DNA of 63,905 nucleotides, filler included, from 8 parts of 8 records of this genome joined end to end with filler, not necessarily neighbours in it, one strand, 5' to 3'; counted from the whole stretch's first letter, positions 8,310-58,059 are shown. Made by a program: numbers and translations. Notes: generated by a model not told the origin, from the sequence alone.

Positions 8310-8409
8310 NNNNNNNNNNNNNNNNNNNNNNNNNNNNNNNNNNNNNNNNNNNNTTAATTAATTAANNNNNNNNNNNNNNNNNNNNNNNNNNNNNNNNNNN
8401 NNNNNNNNN
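8310..8409. other. Artificial contig linker
   Basis: N-run, TTAATTAATTAA, N-run. Confidence 0.99.
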
Positions 8410-20879: not shown

Positions 20880-20979
20880 NNNNNNNNNNNNNNNNNNNNN
20901 NNNNNNNNNNNNNNNNNNNNNNNTTAATTAATTAANNNNNNNNNNNNNNNNNNNNNNNNNNNNNNNNNNNNNNNNNNNN
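20880..20979. other. Artificial contig linker
   Basis: N-run, TTAATTAATTAA, N-run. Confidence 0.99.
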
Positions 20980-28708: not shown

Positions 28709-28808
28709 NNNNNNNNNNNNNNNNNNNNNNNNNNNNNNNNNNNNNNNNNNNNTTAATTAATTAANNNNNNNNNNNNNNNNNNNNNNNNNNNNNNNNNNNN
28801 NNNNNNNN
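28709..28808. other. Artificial contig linker
   Basis: N-run, TTAATTAATTAA, N-run. Confidence 0.99.
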
Positions 28809-35749: not shown

Positions 35750-35849
35750 NNNNNNNNNNNNNNNNNNNNNNNNNNNNNNNNNNNNNNNNNNNNTTAATTA
35801 ATTAANNNNNNNNNNNNNNNNNNNNNNNNNNNNNNNNNNNNNNNNNNNN
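35750..35849. other. Artificial contig linker
   Basis: N-run, TTAATTAATTAA, N-run. Confidence 0.99.
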
Positions 35850-36856: not shown

Positions 36857-38368
36857 TTACTTGAGGACTTCAAAAACCAAGACACAGACTATGCAGGAAA
36901 AATAAAGCCCCGAAGCAATAAAAATCTTTCTGTCCCTCAGTTGTACAGCGCGCGCCTGAACAGCCGTTGAAATACGCGGAATTACTGCAAGCACCTCAAA
37001 ATCCAACTCTATTATTTGTCGCACGTCCTTAACGGAACTATCCAACGTCTCCAAAAGGAGAATAACACCCAGTCCCCCTCCAAAGCCTGCAACTATTGCC
37101 AGAAGAATCATCCTGACCATGTTCGGAGAGACCGGAGTCTCTGGGAAAATTGCCGGATCAACAACTCTGAAAGTAGTTGTTTTATCGCCTATTTCCATCT
37201 GCTTTGAAACTTCAGACTGGCCCATACGGGCCAGCAGGTCTTGATAGATCCTGCGATAGGAATCCCTTTCCTGGATCATCATGCCAAGCTTTTTAGTATT
37301 TTCCGGAATAAACTTCAGCTCCTTCTCTTTTTCGAGAATCATATTCTGCAAACGCGCCTGTCTTGCCTTCAAAGCGCTTATCTCCGTCTCGGCATTCAGC
37401 ATGGCCTGCCTGGTTTCCTGATAAACCGGGTTGGCGGACCGAGTCTCCAGACTGGAGGGGGAAGGAGAAGCCCCTTTTCCTTCCTTTAAATTCCTTTTAT
37501 GCGCCTCCAGTTCCGCTTTCAGCTTGACCACTTCCGGATAATTCTCCGTATAAGAGATCAGAAGATATTTTATTCGCGCCTCCAGCACTTCAAGCCGATT
37601 TGCCCGCTCTCCCTCACTAAAAAGGGATATTTCAGGGCTGATCGTTTTCAGCTGCTTTGCGAGCTCGTTTCTCCGCGCGGTCAACGTGTCGATTTCAAGG
37701 TTGTTGTTATCAATCTGGCGATTATAATCCCTGATATTGGCAATTATTGCAGGCTCATCCAAGGAGAGAAAAACACTCTCCTGGTTTCGGAATTTAATGA
37801 TTCGATCTTCGGATTTATCCAGCTTGTCTTTGAAAACCACCAATTGCTCTTCCAGGAAGCGGTTTGCCCCGTAGGTTTCCTCACGGTTTGAAGAGGAGCT
37901 TTGTTCGAGGTATTTTTGAACAAGCGTATTGATGTACTGCTGTGCGAAATGTGGATCACGATCTACTATTGAGAGAATGAAAAGGTCATCTCTTCGCTGG
38001 GTCAACTGGGTCCTTCTTTGAAGGGAAGTTACATAACCCTGCATAGCCCCATCGGTCTTAAATTTCGCATCAACATCCAACTCTTTCAGGACGTCCGTAA
38101 TCAATCCGCGGCTGAGCAAGGCGTAGCGAAGAACCCGGATCTGATCGTCCATGTCCTGGGTCACAACCAGCCCTTCCACAAGGTCATTAATGACACTTTT
38201 CTCAATAAATACGGTACTGTCCGCTCGATACTTCTTCGGAATGAAGTAGCACCCTATAACCAGAACGGTCATCAGAGCAAAGGATACCGAAAAGAAAAGC
38301 CCCTTCCGTTTATTTAAAATAGAAAGATATCGAAATACTTGATCTAAATTATTTTCCATAATACTCAC
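36857..38368 (-). CDS. Polysaccharide chain-length determinant (XrtA-system Wzz/GumC type)
   Basis: Two TMs flanking a long coiled coil; YTENYPEV; FRVVDPAIFPETPVSPN. Confidence 0.88.
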   Translation of the reverse strand: MSIMENNLDQVFRYLSILNKRKGLFFSVSFALMTVLVIGCYFIPKKYRADSTVFIEKSVINDLVEGLVVTQDMDDQIRVLRYALLSRGLITDVLKELDVDAKFKTDGAMQGYVTSLQRRTQLTQRRDDLFILSIVDRDPHFAQQYINTLVQKYLEQSSSSNREETYGANRFLEEQLVVFKDKLDKSEDRIIKFRNQESVFLSLDEPAIIANIRDYNRQIDNNNLEIDTLTARRNELAKQLKTISPEISLFSEGERANRLEVLEARIKYLLISYTENYPEVVKLKAELEAHKRNLKEGKGASPSPSSLETRSANPVYQETRQAMLNAETEISALKARQARLQNMILEKEKELKFIPENTKKLGMMIQERDSYRRIYQDLLARMGQSEVSKQMEIGDKTTTFRVVDPAIFPETPVSPNMVRMILLAIVAGFGGGLGVILLLETLDSSVKDVRQIIELDFEVLAVIPRISTAVQARAVQLRDRKIFIASGLYFSCIVCVLVFEVLK

Positions 38369-38386
38369 AGAACCTGAATAGAGAAA

Positions 38387-39184
38387 TCAAAAGAGCCCTT
38401 CTTCCACCATAATATAATCCCCCGGCTTGAGGAAAAGGTTCATGGCGGAATCCTTCCCTTTCATGACCTCCTTGAGGCGGACTTTTATTCTCTCCTCGCC
38501 TCGAAGAATCGTTACATTGTTCAATTTGGCAAACTCGGTAAAACCACCCGCTTCGAGAATCGCATCCAGGACTTTTATCCCTTCACGGTAAAAGATATAC
38601 GTTGGTTGATTCACTGCACCGACAACATATATCTTATTATGCTCATTGGTCGGGAGAAAAACGATATCGTCTGCTTGAAGTTCAATGTCCTGGGAAAAAT
38701 CCCCTTTCACGAAAAGACCATAAACGTCTGCCTCTATTTTTTTCCCTTTTCGCATAATATAAGAACGCTTCAAATCGGCATTCTCCAGGCTTTCAAATCT
38801 GCATAGAAATTTGAAAAGCATGATTTTTCCCGGCATGTCAACAACTTCAGAAGGCACCCCGCCGCCGGAAACATAAATACGGTTGTTTGTAATTTGAGAT
38901 ACGGTAACGGTCACAATCGGCTGTTGAACATATTTTTTCAAAACCGTCCCGATTTTTTGGCTCAAACCGGCGGGAGTCTGACCAGACGCCTTGACATCTC
39001 CTGCTGCGGGCAACGTGATTTTTCCGTCGGGACGAACCGTCACCTGGACACTCAGTTCGGGCTCTCCCCACACGGAAACGCCAAGCACATCCCCTTCTCC
39101 GATAATATAGTCTTCCGCAAAAGCCTGAGAACTCATGAGAAAAAACAAGCTTAAAAAAGCAACAGCAAAATATTTCATCTTCAT
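38387..39184 (-). CDS. Polysaccharide export protein (Wza-like, SLBB domains)
   Basis: YIIGEGDVLGVSVWGEPELS..VTVRPDGKITLP; LDAILEAGGFTEFA. Confidence 0.88.
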   Translation of the reverse strand: MKMKYFAVAFLSLFFLMSSQAFAEDYIIGEGDVLGVSVWGEPELSVQVTVRPDGKITLPAAGDVKASGQTPAGLSQKIGTVLKKYVQQPIVTVTVSQITNNRIYVSGGGVPSEVVDMPGKIMLFKFLCRFESLENADLKRSYIMRKGKKIEADVYGLFVKGDFSQDIELQADDIVFLPTNEHNKIYVVGAVNQPTYIFYREGIKVLDAILEAGGFTEFAKLNNVTILRGEERIKVRLKEVMKGKDSAMNLFLKPGDYIMVEEGLF

Positions 39185-40558
39185 TTATCTGCCTCCTCTT
39201 CCAAAAGAAACAACCTTGATTGTCTCCAATATGATAAAAAAATCAAGTTTCAAGGAGTAGTTTTTGATGTAATAAAGATCATATTTGAGCTTTTCCAGGG
39301 AATCTTCCATGGACGCCCCATAAGGATATCTGACCTGAGCCCATCCGGTAATCCCCGGTTTTACAGAGTGCCTTTTGGAGTAATAGCTGTACTTCTCATT
39401 CAGTTTTTCAACAAATTCAGGTCGTTCAGGCCGAGGTCCCACAAAACTCATGTCACCCTTTAAAACATTGATCAACTGTGGGATCTCATCCAAACGTGTC
39501 TTGCGTAAAAACTTTCCAACTTTGGTAATTCTGGGGTCGTCTTCCTGAGCCCAGACGGCACCTGAAGACTTTTCGGCATCCGCTCTCATGGTGCGAAACT
39601 TATTGAGAAAAAATGGCTTTTCGTCGACTCCGACCCGAATCTGGCGAAAAAGAACTTTTCCAGGCGAGTCTATTTTTATCAGGATGGCAATAATCGGCAT
39701 TATAGGGAGAGCAACCATAAGACCGAGCAAACCGAAAACAATGTCAAACACCCGTTTGTTGAATCTGGTAAACAGTGTGAATGGAGTGACCTTGAAAGTG
39801 TTGGAAAACAAGAACCAGCTTGGGTTTGTCCTTTCAAGCATGAGCTTGCCTGTCATCTCTTCAAAAAATGTCGTATTTTCTACCACATCAATCCCGGCAA
39901 ATTTACAACGAAGCAGTTCCCGGACAGGCAGAATCCCCCGTCTTTCGGAAAGCGATACGATTATCCTGGAGGCCTTTTCCTTTTTTGCCACTTTAATCAA
40001 ACAGTCCTCCGAGCCGAGAATTTCTCCCTCTGGAACGCTCACCAGGTCTCCCGCCGGCTTGATATAACCTGAAAAGATACAATCCGGAGCCTTTTCTTCC
40101 AGGACCTCCCTCATTTCTTGCGCCATGGGTCCCACGCCAAAAATAAGAACCCGCTTGGCAATGCCGGGAAGTTGCAAAAAGGAGTAATAAAATTTATGCC
40201 ACCACAACTGGGCAAGGCCAAACAAAAACAATGCTATAACCAAAACATAGCGCCCACCGGTAAGCTGAGGAAAAACGTAGTAAACCCAGGAAAGAGCCAT
40301 GAAAGCCAGCAACAGGGAAGCGCCCAAACGAAAAAATATCTCATGTTTTGCAAATATTTTTTCCAGGTTGTAAAGCTCGGAAAAATAGGTGGTAATAAGC
40401 AACACCGTTATAAAAATCAGAATTTTTGCAAACTCCCTACTGAAAATCCCATCCCCGGGAAAAGAAACGGAATACGGTTGCAGAAAAAACCCACAGAAGT
40501 ACGCAAATCCCGCGAATAAAAAGTCGCCTCCCATCAGAAAAAGAGCATTTCGATTCAT
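39185..40558 (-). CDS. Priming glycosyl-phosphotransferase (TIGR03013-like, PEP-CTERM system)
   Basis: KFRTM, DDPRITKVGKFLRKTRLDEIPQ, VGPRPERP, KPGITGWAQV, DLYYIKN. Confidence 0.9.
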   Translation of the reverse strand: MNRNALFLMGGDFLFAGFAYFCGFFLQPYSVSFPGDGIFSREFAKILIFITVLLITTYFSELYNLEKIFAKHEIFFRLGASLLLAFMALSWVYYVFPQLTGGRYVLVIALFLFGLAQLWWHKFYYSFLQLPGIAKRVLIFGVGPMAQEMREVLEEKAPDCIFSGYIKPAGDLVSVPEGEILGSEDCLIKVAKKEKASRIIVSLSERRGILPVRELLRCKFAGIDVVENTTFFEEMTGKLMLERTNPSWFLFSNTFKVTPFTLFTRFNKRVFDIVFGLLGLMVALPIMPIIAILIKIDSPGKVLFRQIRVGVDEKPFFLNKFRTMRADAEKSSGAVWAQEDDPRITKVGKFLRKTRLDEIPQLINVLKGDMSFVGPRPERPEFVEKLNEKYSYYSKRHSVKPGITGWAQVRYPYGASMEDSLEKLKYDLYYIKNYSLKLDFFIILETIKVVSFGRGGR

Positions 40559-40586
40559 TGATGATTACAAATTCCTTATGGGTGTT

Positions 40587-40655
40587 TAGGCTGAAGGCTG
40601 AAGACTATCAGGAGAGCCCTTAAACTTCAGTCTTCGGTCTATCAATCTTCAACCT
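40587..40655. repeat. 7-nt-periodic inverted repeat (AGGCTGA / TCAGCCT family)
   Basis: TAGGCTGAAGGCTGAAGACTATCAGG ... CTTCAGTCTTCGGTCTATCAATCTTCAACCT. Confidence 0.65.
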
Positions 40656-40660
40656 TTTTT

Positions 40661-40791
40661 GCCGCTGATCTTCGCTGATGAACGCTGATTTAAAAACAAC
40701 CCCCAAAACCCCGAGTCTCTTTTCCCAATAGCCTTCAGCCTATAGCCTTTTGCATTAGTCTAATCATGCCTTTTCTGCGTCAATCTCTGGC
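40661..40791. repeat. 10-nt-periodic inverted-repeat unit A
   Basis: Left arm GCCGCTGATC-TTCGCTGATG-AACGCTGATT; right arm TAATCATGCC-TTTTCTGCGT-CAATCTCTGG-C. Confidence 0.85.
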
Positions 40792-40816
40792 CAAGTCAAG
40801 GTCTTAAAACCTTTTT

Positions 40817-40916
40817 GCCGCTGATCTAAAATGATTTTCGCTGATTAAACAAAACTTAAAACCACTGTTTTGTGGTTTTAAGGTCTGATCATGCCTTTTC
40901 AGTTTAAATCTGCGAC
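40817..40916. repeat. 10-nt-periodic inverted-repeat unit B
   Basis: GCCGCTGATC-TAAAATGATT-TTCGCTGATT ... TGATCATGCC-TTTTCAGTTT-AAATCTGCGA-C; internal perfect 11-bp stem CTTAAAACCAC/GTGGTTTTAAG. Confidence 0.8.
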
Positions 40917-40941
40917 TAACAACAAGATTCTAAAGGCATTT

Positions 40942-41364
40942 TTAGCCGTCGATTTGCTGCGGACTCAAAACCATCCTTTTTACTTGGGGTTTCGGTCCAA
41001 AATTCAACAGAAGACCAACCTCTAGTTGTGTTGCTTTCAGGTAATTCAACAGTTGCGGCTCGTGTTCAGGAGCAAGAGCTTTGACTGCCTTTATTTCTAC
41101 AATGACATTATCATTTACAAGAATGTCGGCAAAAAACTCACCCACACAGCGATGTTCATAAAAAACCTTTACCGGAGCTTGAACCTGAAATTTGACATTG
41201 TGTTTTTCCAATTCAATTGCAAGTGCATTTTCATAAACTTTTTCCAGAAAACCACTCCCAAGCCTGTTATACACATTATAAAAACTGCAAATAATAAGGT
41301 CCGTTGTTTCAGAGTATTTGTAGCGCTTATCAAAATGGCTGTTTCCCATCTTGAATTTTTCCAC
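40942..41364 (-). CDS. GxxExxY family PD-(D/E)XK nuclease-like protein
   Basis: LGSGFLEKVYENAL (GxxExxY), ADILV..VIVEIK, QLLNYLKAT..EVGLLLNFG. Confidence 0.93.
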   Translation of the reverse strand: MEKFKMGNSHFDKRYKYSETTDLIICSFYNVYNRLGSGFLEKVYENALAIELEKHNVKFQVQAPVKVFYEHRCVGEFFADILVNDNVIVEIKAVKALAPEHEPQLLNYLKATQLEVGLLLNFGPKPQVKRMVLSPQQIDG

Positions 41365-41423
41365 ATTAAGAATTATGCTTTTTCAGGGTGAAAGTGACCA
41401 AGACAAGATATTGAAACCTTTCA

Positions 41424-41542
41424 GCCGCTGATCTTCGCTGATGGACGCTGATTTAAAATCCCTAAAACCTCGAAGTTCTATTTCAAATGGCCTTCAGGCT
41501 ATACATTAGTCTAATCATGCCTTTTCAGCGTTAATCTGCGGC
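41424..41542. repeat. 10-nt-periodic inverted-repeat unit C
   Basis: GCCGCTGATC-TTCGCTGATG-GACGCTGATT ... TAATCATGCC-TTTTCAGCGT-TAATCTGCGG-C. Confidence 0.85.
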
Positions 41543-41585
41543 CATTAATATTTTTGCCTTTCCCTTCAGCCTATTTACCTTCTAT

Positions 41586-42710
41586 CTATTTGCTTTCTAT
41601 TTTTTTCAAAAGGCTTTTTGCTTCTTCTTTTTCAGGAAAGTCCTTGGCTGCAAGTGCTTTTTTTAAATACTCAACCGCCCTATCCTTCTCGCCGGCATCC
41701 AAAGCAGTCAAGGCTATATGGTATTCGATGGATGGAGAACCGGGCAGCAGAGTATTGGCTTTTTCCAAAAGAGTAGATGCTTCCTTGCTTTTCCCTTGCT
41801 TCAAAAGAACAAACCCCAGCGTATCCAGAACGTATGGATTTCCCGGCTCATTGCGGTAAGCTCTCATGGCCAAGTCAACAGCTTTCTCAAGTTCTCCGTA
41901 ATTCACCGCGTAAAGATAGGCCAGGTTGTTCAGAGTCGGGGTATGATTCCTGTTCTTTTTGAGAACCTCTTCATAATACTCCAAGGCTCTTTTTTTCTTG
42001 CCAATGCCATCATATATCGAACCGATGGCGTACATTGCGGGGTAAAAATCCGGGTTCTTGCCCAAAAGCTGTTGATAAATGTCCAAAGCCGAGTCCGGCT
42101 TATGAAGTTTCGCATAAATGGAGCCTATACCCATCAACAGGCTAGGATTTTCCTGGTTGCTTTTCAGACCTTCTTCCAAGGTTTTTAACGCAGCCTCAAA
42201 ATTCTTTTGCTGTTCATATATCGCTGCCGAAAGTAAAAATCCGTAAGGAGAATCAGGGGCAGATTTAATCACGCTTGCTGCCAGGTCTTCCGCCTTTTTG
42301 GTCTTCCCCTGAAGTTGGTAGATTTTTATCAGTGAGGGATATCCTTTGCCGGGGCTGACAGATTCCAGCGTCTTAAAAGCTGTTTCCGCTCCTTTAAAAT
42401 CTTTCTTCTTTGCAAGCATCTGACCCTGCAGATTCAGGAAGGTAACATTTTGTGGCTCCAGTCGCAGCCCTTCATCCAAAACCTTTAAAGCTTCATCAGG
42501 TTGCCCTCTTTTATTGTAATAACTTATCAAAGCAATAAACCCGAAGGCGTTGTTGGTCTCTTTCGCTCTTAGCAGATAAGCCAATACCTCTTCATCTTTC
42601 TGCTGCATTTCACTGGTGGTAGCCATCCCCATTAATGCTCTTAAATTCGCAGGGTCCTTTTCCAAAACCGCCAGGTATTGTTCCCGAGCTTTTTCCAAAT
42701 CCCCCTTTTT
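41586..42710 (-). CDS. PrsT-like TPR protein (PEP-CTERM system), 3' part
   Basis: Tandem TPRs; LNNLAYLY, VLDTLGFVL, IEYHIAL, FPEKEEAKSLL tail; upstream of the sugar transferase. Confidence 0.8.
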   Translation of the reverse strand, partial: KKGDLEKAREQYLAVLEKDPANLRALMGMATTSEMQQKDEEVLAYLLRAKETNNAFGFIALISYYNKRGQPDEALKVLDEGLRLEPQNVTFLNLQGQMLAKKKDFKGAETAFKTLESVSPGKGYPSLIKIYQLQGKTKKAEDLAASVIKSAPDSPYGFLLSAAIYEQQKNFEAALKTLEEGLKSNQENPSLLMGIGSIYAKLHKPDSALDIYQQLLGKNPDFYPAMYAIGSIYDGIGKKKRALEYYEEVLKKNRNHTPTLNNLAYLYAVNYGELEKAVDLAMRAYRNEPGNPYVLDTLGFVLLKQGKSKEASTLLEKANTLLPGSPSIEYHIALTALDAGEKDRAVEYLKKALAAKDFPEKEEAKSLLKKIESK

Positions 42711-42810
42711 NNNNNNNNNNNNNNNNNNNNNNNNNNNNNNNNNNNNNNNNNNNNTTAATTAATTAANNNNNNNNNNNNNNNNNNNNNNNNNNNNNNNNNN
42801 NNNNNNNNNN
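42711..42810. other. Artificial contig linker
   Basis: N-run, TTAATTAATTAA, N-run. Confidence 0.99.
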
Positions 42811-43694
42811 CGAAGGTGCCACCGGGCATGGCGTCTTTTCTCAAGCAGAACAATTGGACTGGCAGCAGAACGTAATAGTTCCGCTTCAGAGTCATTCATC
42901 ATACACAATTTATTAGCTGTATTCAGATCTTTAACCATAATGGCAAAGGGTTTTTCCCAGCGGTTTTTCCTTTGCCGCAATCGCTCCACAGCTTCATTAT
43001 TGGTCGCATCTACAGCTAATTGGAATCCACCAAGTGATTTTATGGCTACAATAAGCCCCTGTTTTAATAATTGGCTTGTGGATAAAATAACATCGGACTT
43101 TTTAATGCTTGATCCGGTGGAGTCATAAAGCTCCAGGTGAGGACCACAAGCAGGGCAGGCATTTGGTTGAGCATGGAATCGTCTCTCTAACGGATTATCA
43201 TACTCTTTTTGGCAGTCAGAGCACATTATAAAAGACTTCATCGACGTGTGCCGACGATCATAAGGCAGTTGAGATGTGATTGTGAAACGAGGCCCGCAGT
43301 GGGTGCAATTTGTGAATGGATAGTTGTATCTTTTATCTCCGGAATCATGTAGTTCCTGTCGGCAATTTTCACAGATAGACAAATCAGGGGGGATAGATGC
43401 CTCAATATCTGAACTGGAAAGGCTTGCACGGATTTGAAAGTCAGAGAATCCTACCGGCTCCATATCCTGTTCTTCTGTGCGATGAATCTTTGAGAACGGA
43501 GGTGCTAAATGATAGAGATCATGCAGAAACGATAAAAGTTGTCCATTATGACATTCAACGTGAATGATAACTTCTGAAGCCTGGTTAGCGACATAACCTT
43601 TCAAATCGTATTTTTGAGCCAGGCGATAGACGAATGGTCTAAAGCCGACACCCTGAACAATCCCGGATAATGTTATTTTTTTATGATGAACCAT
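42811..43694 (-). CDS. hypF: [NiFe]-hydrogenase carbamoyltransferase HypF, 5' part
   Basis: GIVQGVGFRPFVYRLA, CENC, NCTHCGPRF, RRFHAQPNACPACGP, KSLGGFQL. Confidence 0.93.
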
Positions 43695-44340
43695 TCTTTT
43701 TCGATTCAAGTAAAAATGTGATCCATTTATCAATCCCATCACCATTAGCGCAGGAAGTATTAAATATAGTTATATTTTTATTTAGGGTTTTTAATTCATC
43801 TATTACTTTAGATTTATTATAAGGTTGCATATGAAGAAAATCCATTTTATTCATAATCACGCATTGCGCTTTTTGAAATGTAGCAGGATATTTTTCAACC
43901 TTGTCATCACCCTCTGTTACACTCAGCACGATGGCTCGAATATTTTCACCTAAAGGATAACTTGCAGGACAAACCAGATTGCCCACGTTTTCTATGAACA
44001 AAAAATCGATTTCTGAAAGGTCGAAATCTTTAACCGCCTTTGCAATAATCTGTGCCTCCAAATGACAAGCACCACCTGTTGTCAATTGTGCGCAAGGGAT
44101 ATTGAATTTACTGACACGCTCCGCATCCCGTGTTGTGGCGATATCACCAACAAGAACGGCAGGCTTTTTTCCAATTTTTTGTAAAGCGGGAATCGTCTTT
44201 TCAAGAATGGACGTTTTACCAGCGCCGGGAGAACCCATCAAACCAACGACAAAGACATTGAATTTTTTAAAAAGTTTTTGATTTTCAGTTGCCAGGTGGT
44301 GTTGAGCCTTTAATACACCTTCATAAATGGGAATCTGCAA
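43681..44340 (-). CDS. hypB: Hydrogenase nickel incorporation GTPase HypB
   Basis: GSPGAGKT, GGACHLEA, ENVGNLVCPA, EGDDKVEKYP, NKMD. Confidence 0.93.
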   Translation of the reverse strand: MQIPIYEGVLKAQHHLATENQKLFKKFNVFVVGLMGSPGAGKTSILEKTIPALQKIGKKPAVLVGDIATTRDAERVSKFNIPCAQLTTGGACHLEAQIIAKAVKDFDLSEIDFLFIENVGNLVCPASYPLGENIRAIVLSVTEGDDKVEKYPATFQKAQCVIMNKMDFLHMQPYNKSKVIDELKTLNKNITIFNTSCANGDGIDKWITFLLESKKNGSS

Positions 44341-51285: not shown

Positions 51286-51385
51286 NNNNNNNNNNNNNNN
51301 NNNNNNNNNNNNNNNNNNNNNNNNNNNNNTTAATTAATTAANNNNNNNNNNNNNNNNNNNNNNNNNNNNNNNNNNNNNNNNNNNN
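51286..51385. other. Artificial contig linker
   Basis: N-run, TTAATTAATTAA, N-run. Confidence 0.99.
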
Positions 51386-57959: not shown

Positions 57960-58059
57960 NNNNNNNNNNNNNNNNNNNNNNNNNNNNNNNNNNNNNNNNN
58001 NNNTTAATTAATTAANNNNNNNNNNNNNNNNNNNNNNNNNNNNNNNNNNNNNNNNNNNN
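57960..58059. other. Artificial contig linker
   Basis: N-run, TTAATTAATTAA, N-run. Confidence 0.99.

What the first reader, a model, noticed from the sequence alone, without database searches (positions are those of the whole stretch)
40661..41542. GxxExxY nuclease gene embedded in a tandem array of 10-nt-periodic hairpin elements: candidate REP/RAYT-like system
Seen: three complete units (A 40661-40791, B 40817-40916, C 41424-41542). Each has a left arm of three imperfect 10-mers (GCCGCTGATC-TTCGCTGATG-AACGCTGATT), a variable spacer of about 40-70 nt, and an imperfectly complementary right arm (TAATCATGCC-TTTTCAGCGT-TAATCTGCGG). Units are joined by a conserved linker (CCAAGTCAAGGTCTTAAAACCTTTT-like). 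The nuclease gene itself fills the spacer of a fourth, degenerate unit: linker plus left-arm start GCCGTCGATT (40945-40954) abuts its stop codon and encodes its last codons (IDG*), and a right-arm/linker remnant (AATTATGCTTTTTCAGGGTG...CCAAGACAAG, 41371-41408) lies just upstream of its start. The whole block separates the PrsT-like gene from the priming sugar transferase. Established: GxxExxY proteins are PD-(D/E)XK-fold proteins of unknown function. Inference: this is an autonomous nuclease plus non-autonomous hairpin elements, analogous to RAYT/REPIN but using a different fold, possibly mobilising or recombining cassettes in surface-polysaccharide loci.
Basis: partly seen in the sequence, partly recalled or inferred. 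Interest (0 to 1): 0.85.

Follow-up and report, generated by a model that had tools for sequence, protein, structure and literature searches.

The report
Hairpin-repeat array carrying GxxExxY nuclease gene
Three hairpin repeats and a small nuclease gene of unknown function fill a gene junction that is normally tight, and they belong to a repeat-plus-nuclease family found in many bacterial phyla that is likely a selfish DNA element not yet described in print.

Summary
Units A, B and C are real. B and C fold far better than shuffles; A is decayed. The gene between them is an intact GxxExxY / PF13366 PD-(D/E)XK protein. The right-arm-plus-linker remnant next to its start is significant (0 of 2000 shuffles). 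The left-arm remnant at its stop is not (354 of 2000).

The CGCTGAT-word arm is not local. It occurs in at least 123 loci of many phyla, often as a hairpin, and PF13366 is the only family that recurs beside it. Of 13 PF13366 genes in four genomes, 10 have significant inverted tandem-word arms, against 0 of 25 control windows.

In Algoriphagus the hairpin-gene-hairpin block is present or absent as one unit at one junction: 10 genomes filled, 11 empty with no hairpin. There the gene is under strong purifying selection, and both arms changed words in concert while staying complementary.

The block is best read as a REPIN/RAYT-like or IVS-like selfish cassette with a different enzyme fold. Mobility and substrate are not shown. 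One genome holds 135 arm doublets but no matching gene.

This scan has noted the same class on other DNA many times. I found no paper describing it.

The parts
40661..40791 (.). Unit A: gene-less hairpin unit. Left arm is 3 x CGCTGAT at period 10; right arm is decayed.
   Evidence: The fold is not better than shuffles.
40792..40816 (.). Linker A/B (CCAAGTCAAGGTCTTAAAACCTTTTT), repeated before unit C.
   Evidence: family D3 (73% over 73 nt with 41395-41467).
40817..40916 (.). Unit B: shorter hairpin unit. Its loop holds a terminator-like stem (40855-40882) followed by a T tract on the minus strand, just downstream of the nuclease gene.
   Evidence: z -5.4 / -6.3.
40942..41364 (-). GxxExxY / PF13366 PD-(D/E)XK nuclease-fold gene, 140 aa. 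E41, D80, E90 and K92 are present. The start may instead be the ATG at codon 6.
40945..40964 (.). Possible degenerate arm remnant of unit D, encoding the C-terminal tail SPQQIDG. Weak.
   Evidence: not above chance alone. In relatives the ORF end does run into the ATCAGCG arm (L087).
41371..41423 (.). Arm remnant of unit D (41371-41392) plus the D/C linker, directly upstream of the gene start.
   Evidence: 0 of 2000 shuffles, family D4.
41424..41542 (.). Unit C: the best-preserved gene-less hairpin unit.
   Evidence: (z -4.0 / -3.8).
40588..40613 (.). GGCTGAAG word repeat. It pairs with AGCCTTCAGCC in the spacer of A (40723-40748). Copies also lie in C's spacer and at 41563-41574.
   Evidence: I1, I6, I15, D8.
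39185..40558 (-). Flanking gene: TIGR03013 XrtA/PEP-CTERM priming sugar transferase.
41586..42698 (-). Flanking gene: 3' part of a PrsT-like TPR gene. The ORF runs into a masked N stretch at 42711.

Best explanation
The 1027-nt block between the PrsT-like gene and the priming sugar transferase is a tandem array of four copies of a hairpin element whose arms are tandem CGCTGAT words, and one copy carries an intact GxxExxY (PF13366) PD-(D/E)XK nuclease-fold gene in its loop. The block belongs to a cross-phylum family of hairpin-bounded GxxExxY cassettes with gene-less hairpin copies.

Inferred mechanism: the cassette likely behaves as selfish DNA. The nuclease would act on the hairpin or palindrome, either as an extruded cruciform or as a single-strand stem. 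That action would promote copying, recombination or retention of hairpin units. The gene-less units A, B and C would be non-autonomous copies made by local duplication. This resembles RAYT with REPINs, but with a different enzyme fold.

Shown: the architecture, the association of gene and hairpin, presence or absence as one unit, purifying selection on the gene, and compensatory change of the arms.

Inferred: that the nuclease acts on the hairpins, and that the element moves.
For: 1. Spread of the arm. The triple CGCTGAT arm occurs in at least 123 loci of Verrucomicrobiota, Planctomycetota, Acidobacteriota, Chloroflexota, Bacteroidota, Cyanobacteria and others. Of 135 arm blocks, 49 have an inverted partner of at least 19 of 27 within 260 nt, against 1 of 135 for a reversed control.
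2. Neighbouring family. PF13366 is the only family that recurs next to the arm. An ORF abuts it in 5 loci, and a sixth lies 1.4 kb away, out of 127 loci scanned.
3. Genomes where the word is rare. In G004, 5 of 5 CGCTGAT doublets flank a PF13366 gene. In G005, 3 of 4 do. The reversed-pattern control gives 0.
4. Arms around the gene. Of 13 PF13366 genes in four genomes, 10 have significant inverted tandem-word arms, against 0 of 25 shifted control windows. Each gene copy has its own word.
5. Presence or absence as a unit. In Algoriphagus the hairpin-gene-hairpin block sits at one junction in 10 genomes. It is missing, with no hairpin left, in 11.
6. Selection on the gene. dN/dS is 0.02-0.04 in the 3 pairs where dS could be computed. 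dS is saturated in the other pairs, with dN 0.16-0.29. E41, D80, E90 and K92 are at least 90% conserved in 62 sequences. The model has the PD-(D/E)XK fold with pLDDT 92.
7. Arms change in concert. Orthologous cassettes switched words from CGCTGAT/ATCAGCG to CACAGAT/ATCTGTG in both arms and both flanking hairpins. Of 13 predicted pairs, 4 show two-sided changes.
8. Match to dispersed copies. Genomes with ATCTGTG-armed cassettes hold 17-46 dispersed ATCTGTG doublets, against 3-6 in the others.
9. Turnover. Copy number among 41 congeners is 0-8, and 14 of 111 matches carry stop codons.
10. The junction here. In 8 of 12 sampled relatives PrsT lies directly upstream of the transferase, with an extrapolated gap of about -6 to 45 nt. 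The window has 1027 nt.
11. Other copies in the likely source sample. At least 4 other contigs carry the arm.
Against: - G002 has 135 CGCTGAT doublets, yet none of its 4 PF13366 genes has CGCTGAT arms. G001 has the arm and no PF13366 match. Both genomes are MAGs and may be incomplete.
- CGCTGAT-armed proteins are not one clade: 5 fall in a 10-row clade and 1 in the other major clade, among 17 rows.
- The Algoriphagus pattern fits a single old gain or loss followed by vertical descent. I did not polarise it, and I saw no recent insertion and no target-site duplication.
- The window's own gene-bearing unit has lost arm complementarity, and its left remnant is not significant.
- The test for the functional strand was inconclusive: 4 sense against 3 antisense, among 21 hairpins.
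- There is no biochemical evidence of any kind. The structural matches are generic nuclease cores (best Z 8.2, a level the tool says is common).
Confidence: 0.5

Rival explanations
1. The hairpins are host-serving signals, such as transcription terminators, mRNA-end stabilisers or operon insulators. The GxxExxY gene is an ordinary small gene that merely carries such signals at its ends. In this reading the nuclease has nothing to do with the hairpins.
For: - The hairpins sit after gene ends: 9 convergent junctions against 3 divergent, among 21 hairpins.
- Unit B holds a terminator-like stem plus T tract right after the gene.
- One genome has about 65 hairpins and no matching gene.
- The gene is vertically inherited under strong purifying selection, like a host gene.
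Against: - Plain terminators need neither tandem words nor 30-nt arms.
- The same word recurs across phyla.
- In G004 and G005 the word occurs almost only at PF13366 genes.
- Ten of 13 genes lie inside one long inverted repeat rather than being followed by a hairpin.
- Empty sites lack the hairpins too.
Confidence: 0.22
2. It is an RNA-level element like the intervening sequences of 23S rRNA. The long stem formed by the arms would be cut out of the transcript by RNase III, which makes insertion inside operons harmless. In this reading the protein's role is separate or unknown.
For: - The architecture is the same as ORF-bearing intervening sequences: an ORF inside a long terminal stem. The Coxiella element is described as a 428-nt selfish element with an ORF (abstract of PMC4990558, seen in the listing).
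- The block here sits inside an operon, on the same strand as both neighbours.
- All three units fold more stably on the transcribed minus strand: -32.1 against -18.0, -37.7 against -30.9, and -40.1 against -35.0 kcal/mol.
- Arm pairing is kept through compensatory change.
Against: - The three units are copies of one another, so the strand bias counts as one observation. Across independent hairpins the bias is 4 against 3.
- There is no Rfam match and no rRNA context.
- This reading does not explain a conserved nuclease active site.
- It is compatible with the main explanation rather than exclusive of it.
Confidence: 0.15
3. It is a toxin-antitoxin or anti-phage module. The nuclease would be a toxin or effector, and the repeat RNA would control it, as in type III toxin-antitoxin systems.
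For: - It is a small nuclease next to repeats.
- Copy number varies among congeners.
- There are weak PADLOC hits to PDC-M36A (E 0.001 and 0.006).
Against: - The PADLOC hits are marginal and partial, and there is no PHROG hit.
- The repeats are inverted arms around the gene, not a tandem direct-repeat RNA gene upstream of it.
- Many hairpins stand alone, far from any nuclease gene.
Confidence: 0.08

Closest known systems
REP / REPIN elements with their RAYT (TnpA-REP, HUH Y1) genes
   Same: - A single small nuclease-type gene is flanked by inverted copies of a palindromic repeat.
- Many gene-less copies lie at gene ends, sometimes in tandem clusters.
- The gene is inherited vertically under purifying selection.
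- The repeat type of the flanks tends to match the dispersed copies in the same genome.
   Different: - The enzyme has a PD-(D/E)XK fold (PF13366), not HUH/Y1.
- The arms are about 30 nt of tandem 7-10-nt words, not a short REP with a conserved 5' tetranucleotide (that REP feature is recalled, not tested).
- The gene sits inside the loop of one long hairpin.
- The range covers many phyla rather than mainly Proteobacteria.
ORF-bearing intervening sequences (IVS) of 23S rRNA, such as the S23p-encoding elements (PMC4990558, abstract seen in the listing)
   Same: A small ORF is enclosed by long terminal inverted repeats that can form one stem. The element is inserted in the same sense inside a transcription unit and is regarded as selfish.
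   Different: - It lies between protein-coding genes, not in an rRNA helix.
- The ORF family is PF13366, not the four-helix-bundle S23p family.
- Gene-less copies and tandem arrays exist.
Free-standing homing endonuclease genes, and MITE-like non-autonomous elements
   Same: A small nuclease gene with variable presence at orthologous sites, alongside short inverted-repeat elements that lack a gene.
   Different: No intron or intein host, no transposase, and no target-site duplication was seen. The gene persists intact under strong purifying selection through long vertical descent, unlike the usual decay of homing endonuclease genes (recalled).

Membership tests
PF13366 PDDEXK_3 / TIGR04256 GxxExxY | Profile match above the curated cut-off | tested here: met
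   Pfam 140.1 bits (cut-off 22), E 5.4e-41. NCBIfam 137 bits (cut-off 35), E 3.4e-40.
PF13366 PDDEXK_3 / TIGR04256 GxxExxY | GxxExxY motif and a D...ExK catalytic core within a PD-(D/E)XK fold | tested here: met
   G38, E41, Y44, D80, E90 and K92 are at least 90% conserved in 62 sequences and are present here. AF2 model has pLDDT 92. Best structural matches are Cas4 SSO0001, the BpuSI nuclease domain, lambda exonuclease and Hjc.
REP/RAYT (REPIN) system | HUH Y1 (TnpA-REP) transposase gene | tested here: not met
   The only Pfam match of the ORF is PF13366.
REP/RAYT (REPIN) system | Gene flanked by inverted copies of the repeat | tested here: inconclusive
   Met in 10 of 13 relatives. In the window the gene's own arms are degenerate: one side is significant and the other is not. 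Complete units B and C flank the gene in direct orientation.
REP/RAYT (REPIN) system | Many gene-less copies of the same repeat in the same genome | tested here: inconclusive
   No genome is held for the window. At least 4 other contigs of the likely source sample carry the arm. G002 has 135 doublets but no matching gene.
23S rRNA intervening sequence (IVS) | Located in a 23S rRNA helix | tested here: not met
   It lies between two protein-coding genes. There is no Rfam match in 38000-44000 at E up to 1.
23S rRNA intervening sequence (IVS) | Terminal stem cut by RNase III | not testable with these tools
   Stems are predicted. No RNA run holding this DNA was listed.
Transposon / MITE | Transposase gene and target-site duplications | tested here: inconclusive
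   No transposase family was matched by the ORF. By eye, no duplication stands out at the Algoriphagus filled and empty junctions. The exact boundaries were not resolved.
Type III toxin-antitoxin system | Tandem direct-repeat RNA gene upstream of an endoribonuclease toxin of the ToxN/AbiQ type | tested here: not met
   The protein is PF13366, with only marginal PADLOC hits. The repeats are inverted arms.

The most novel reading that the evidence does not exclude
GxxExxY nucleases with their tandem-word hairpins form a large, undescribed class of selfish DNA in prokaryotes, with more than 15,000 protein clusters across many phyla. A PD-(D/E)XK enzyme cuts its own palindrome. The arms are rebuilt by fold-back or copy-templated repair, which makes all words of both arms change in concert. 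Gene-less copies multiply into arrays inside operons such as this exopolysaccharide locus.
Probability: 0.35. Interest if true: 0.9.

Novelty: new variant of a known kind. Interest (0 to 1): 0.68.

Why it matters
PF13366 is one of the large protein families of unknown function, with 15,092 clusters at 50% identity. Tying it to a specific DNA partner would give it a testable role: hairpins built of tandem words, found with and without the gene. It would also explain a very common kind of intergenic repeat in environmental bacteria. If the partnership is real, it is a second, independent case of the REPIN/RAYT lifestyle, built on a different enzyme fold. It would also be a source of insertions and tandem arrays inside operons.

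Tried and rejected
- Whole genome of the window: none is held, so no genome-wide count in the source organism was possible.
- Rfam scan of 38000-44000 at E up to 1: no match.
- Sequence search of solved structures: only a chance-level hit, E 0.77.
- Homodimer prediction: no verdict, score 0.00. This is no evidence either way.
- RNA runs: no RNA holder was listed, so expression and processing could not be examined.
- Contigs of four marine or salt-marsh metagenome runs: only short pieces of related units and genes in other arrangements. They show neither an empty site nor a habitat.
- Close relatives of the window's organism: the best transferase match among 301 sampled genomes of one phylum was 50-53% identical. 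A strict empty-site allele for this locus was therefore not found.
- Strand-asymmetry test for an RNA-level role: 4 against 3, inconclusive, and based on crude ORF calls.
- Word-versus-protein tree test: 17 rows, no clean sorting, too few rows to decide.
- Protein Atlas: gave family names but no useful taxonomy.
- PADLOC: only marginal hits. PHROGs: none.
- CRISPR-like reading rejected: the units are 100-130 nt internal palindromes without spacers.
- Chance adjacency rejected.

Full report
THE OBSERVATION

The region 40560-41600 holds three related units. Their left arms agree at 75-86% over 51 nt, and their right arms at 66-90% over 41 nt. A linker is repeated between units (73% over 73 nt).

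The word CGCTGAT stands at 40663, 40673 and 40683, and at 41426, 41436 and 41446. It occurs twice more in unit B. These are 8 of the 21 occurrences in the whole window. The triple at period 10 occurs nowhere else in the 63.9 kb.

Units B and C fold far better than dinucleotide shuffles on both strands (z -5.4/-6.3 and -4.0/-3.8). Unit A does not (z 0.5/-0.1), so it is a decayed copy. Strict arm complementarity is only 17-19 of 32.

The ORF 40942-41364 on the minus strand matches PF13366 (E 5e-41) and TIGR04256 GxxExxY (E 3e-40).

The stretch 41371-41423, just upstream of the gene start, is clearly a copy of a right arm plus linker: 0 of 2000 shuffles reach its score against unit A, and 5 of 2000 against unit C. 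The proposed left-arm start at the stop codon is not significant on its own (354 and 732 of 2000). The two remnants no longer pair. The 'fourth unit with the gene in its spacer' is therefore well supported on one side and only plausible on the other.

THE SETTING

The neighbours are a TIGR03013 XrtA/PEP-CTERM sugar transferase and a PrsT-like TPR gene. Both lie on the same strand as the nuclease gene.

I sampled 301 genomes of one phylum. No close relative turned up; the best transferase match was 50-53% identical. In 8 of the 12 best loci a PrsT homologue lies directly upstream of the transferase. The gap, extrapolated from the tblastn ends, is about -6 to 45 nt. The other 4 loci showed no PrsT within the 1.5 kb held. 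The window's gap is 1027 nt, so the block is extra DNA in a normally tight junction. This is not a strict empty-site allele.

THE ARM IS NOT LOCAL

A scan of metagenome contigs found the arm in four unrelated contigs. These lie in Verrucomicrobiota, Planctomycetota, Acidobacteriota, Chloroflexota, Bacteroidota, Cyanobacteria, a Desulfobacula MAG and others. A few hits in G+C-rich Actinomycetota look like coding coincidences.

Of 135 arm blocks, 49 (in 40 loci) have an inverted partner of at least 19 of 27 within 260 nt. A reversed-sequence control gives 1 of 135. The median loop is 29 nt. Tandem arrays of units also recur, for example in L021, L052 and L114.

THE LINK TO THE GENE

I scanned all six-frame ORFs of the 127 loci with the window protein and with a profile built from the hits. 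Six loci hold a PF13366 ORF. In five of them it abuts the arm; in the sixth it lies 1.4 kb away and has its own hairpins built of CGCGAAT words. Only 80 of the loci had 2-kb flanks.

I found 140 ORFs next to the arm and gave Pfam the 56 shorter ones, dropping 84 longer ones. PF13366 appeared five times. No other family appeared more than twice (OsmC, NUDIX, GNAT and ABC, each twice).

In gene orientation the layout is: CGCTGAT words, then the gene, then ATCAGCG words. The ORF often runs into an arm at either end.

Whole-genome counts make the link firmer:
- In G004, all 5 CGCTGAT doublets flank one PF13366 gene.
- In G005, 3 of 4 do.
- The reversed-pattern control gives 0.

Of the 13 full PF13366 genes in G002-G005, 10 have inverted arms that 0 of 300 shuffles reach. 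Shifted control windows give 0 of 25. Each copy has its own word, such as CACGGAG, CATGAAG, CGCAAAG, CGCAGAT, CGCGAAT or CACAAAAGG, at periods of about 8-10. The 10-nt period is thus a feature of this word, not of the family.

AGAINST A SIMPLE ONE-NUCLEASE-ONE-REPEAT MODEL

G002 has 135 CGCTGAT doublets, about 65 hairpins. Yet its four PF13366 genes carry other words. G001 has the arm and no PF13366 match. Both are MAGs and may be incomplete.

In a tree of 17 proteins, the six with CGCTGAT arms are not one clade.

A NATURAL EXPERIMENT IN ALGORIPHAGUS

The cassette of L049/G005 carries CGCTGAT arms. It lies between an OsmC gene and another gene.

Among 41 genomes of the genus:
- Ten have the gene at this junction.
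- Eleven have the two flanking genes 108-235 nt apart. I read all eleven junctions, and they hold neither gene, nor hairpin, nor the words.

Hairpins and gene therefore come and go as one unit. I did not polarise gain against loss. The filled genomes tend to be the closer relatives, which fits a single event.

Six of seven orthologous copies examined are intact. dN/dS is 0.02-0.04 in the three pairs where dS could be computed. In the other pairs dS is saturated, with dN 0.16-0.29.

The arms of these orthologous cassettes differ by species: CGCTGAT/ATCAGCG in some, CACAGAT/ATCTGTG in others. The change is in every word, in both arms and in both flanking hairpins, so pairing is kept. Four of 13 predicted pairs show two-sided changes.

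Genomes whose cassette has ATCTGTG arms hold 17-46 dispersed ATCTGTG doublets. The other two hold 3-6. ATCAGCG doublets are few in all five genomes, 1-7. These five genomes are related, so this is a hint, not a test.

Copy number in the genus is 0-8, and 14 of 111 matches carry stop codons.

THE PROTEIN

The family has 15,092 clusters at 50% identity with E up to 0.001. The nearest is 62% identical. In an alignment of 62 sequences, G36, G38, E41, Y44, D80, E90, K92, Q104, N121, F122, G123 and R130 are at least 90% conserved, and all are present here.

The AlphaFold model is confident (pLDDT 92). It matches generic PD-(D/E)XK nuclease cores:
- Cas4 SSO0001 (Foldseek E 4e-4; Z 7.7)
- the BpuSI nuclease domain (Z 8.2)
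- lambda exonuclease
- Hjc

None stands clear of the rest, so the fold names no substrate.

THE SOURCE SAMPLE

One run holds the whole stretch and may be its source. Besides the full contig, seven contigs of that run match parts of the stretch. At least four of them carry the arm in other contexts, three at similar depth. This is compatible with other copies in the same genome but does not prove it.

READING

What is shown:
- This is a member of a widespread family of hairpin-bounded GxxExxY cassettes with gene-less hairpin copies.
- The hairpin and the gene are gained or lost together.
- The gene is kept by selection.
- The pairing of the arms is kept while the words change in concert.

What I infer, at about even odds: the nuclease acts on the hairpins, and the system is selfish DNA of the REPIN/RAYT kind with another enzyme fold. 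Units A, B and C, which share linkers, would have arisen by local duplication.

The rivals are a host-signal role for the hairpins, an IVS-like RNA-level element, and a toxin or defence module. The IVS-like reading is not exclusive of mine.

KNOWN OR NEW

I ran four literature searches: GxxExxY (3 papers), PF13366/PDDEXK_3 (2 papers), IVS terms (164 papers, 12 listed) and names of the IVS protein family (27 papers, 15 listed). None gave a paper that links this family to repeats.
- PMC3424549: passages read. It lists PF13366 with function 'Unknown' and 'multiple transfers'.
- PMC8934634: one passage read. It mentions the domain only in passing.
- PMC4990558: abstract only, seen in the listing.

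Earlier notes of this scan describe the same class on other DNA many times: 801 notes hold the search words. I took them as a lead and tested the central claims here myself.

Noticed in passing
window 40588-40613, 40723-40748, 41487-41502, 41563-41574: A second word family (GGCTGAAG / CTTCAGCC) is interleaved with the CGCTGAT units. A 26-nt arm upstream of unit A pairs with A's spacer (81%). Copies also sit in C's spacer and just after C. The same two word types lie side by side in the unrelated metagenome contig L002.
   Followed up: partly
window 40855-40882 (minus strand): There is a terminator-like 11-bp stem with a T tract inside the loop of unit B, directly downstream of the nuclease gene and upstream of the sugar transferase. 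If it is active, the transferase needs its own promoter.
   Followed up: no
L015 2001-2145 (Akkermansiaceae MAG): One arm of this hairpin holds about 12 tandem CGCTGATCTT words while the other arm holds 3. The arms expand like microsatellites.
   Followed up: no
L128-L140 (G002-G005): The arm words of different PF13366 cassettes differ, but nearly all begin C-G/A-C on the 5' arm and end G-C/T-G on the 3' arm (CGCTGAT, CACGGAG, CGCAAAG, CGCAGAT, CGCGAAT and others). The outermost base pairs are often CCGC...GCGG.
   Followed up: no
L155-L162 (Algoriphagus orthologous cassettes): The arm words switched from CGCTGAT to CACAGAT in every word of both arms and of both flanking hairpins, while the enclosed gene stayed orthologous. 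This points to concerted copying between arms and words.
   Followed up: partly
proteins P0001-P0005, P0030, P0059 and others: Some relatives are 250-270 aa long with two matched stretches. These are tandem double GxxExxY domains in one protein.
   Followed up: no
window 8310-8409, 20880-20979, 28709-28808, 35750-35849, 42711-42810, 51286-51385, 57960-58059: There are seven paired runs of N (44 N, 12 bases, 44 N), which are masked stretches. The one at 42711 cuts the PrsT-like ORF, so its 5' part cannot be read.
   Followed up: no
G323:C19:21187-21534 (L157) and 13 other Algoriphagus matches: 14 of 111 PF13366 matches in the genus carry in-frame stop codons, including the copy at the orthologous junction in one species. 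Some copies are decaying while most are kept.
   Followed up: partly
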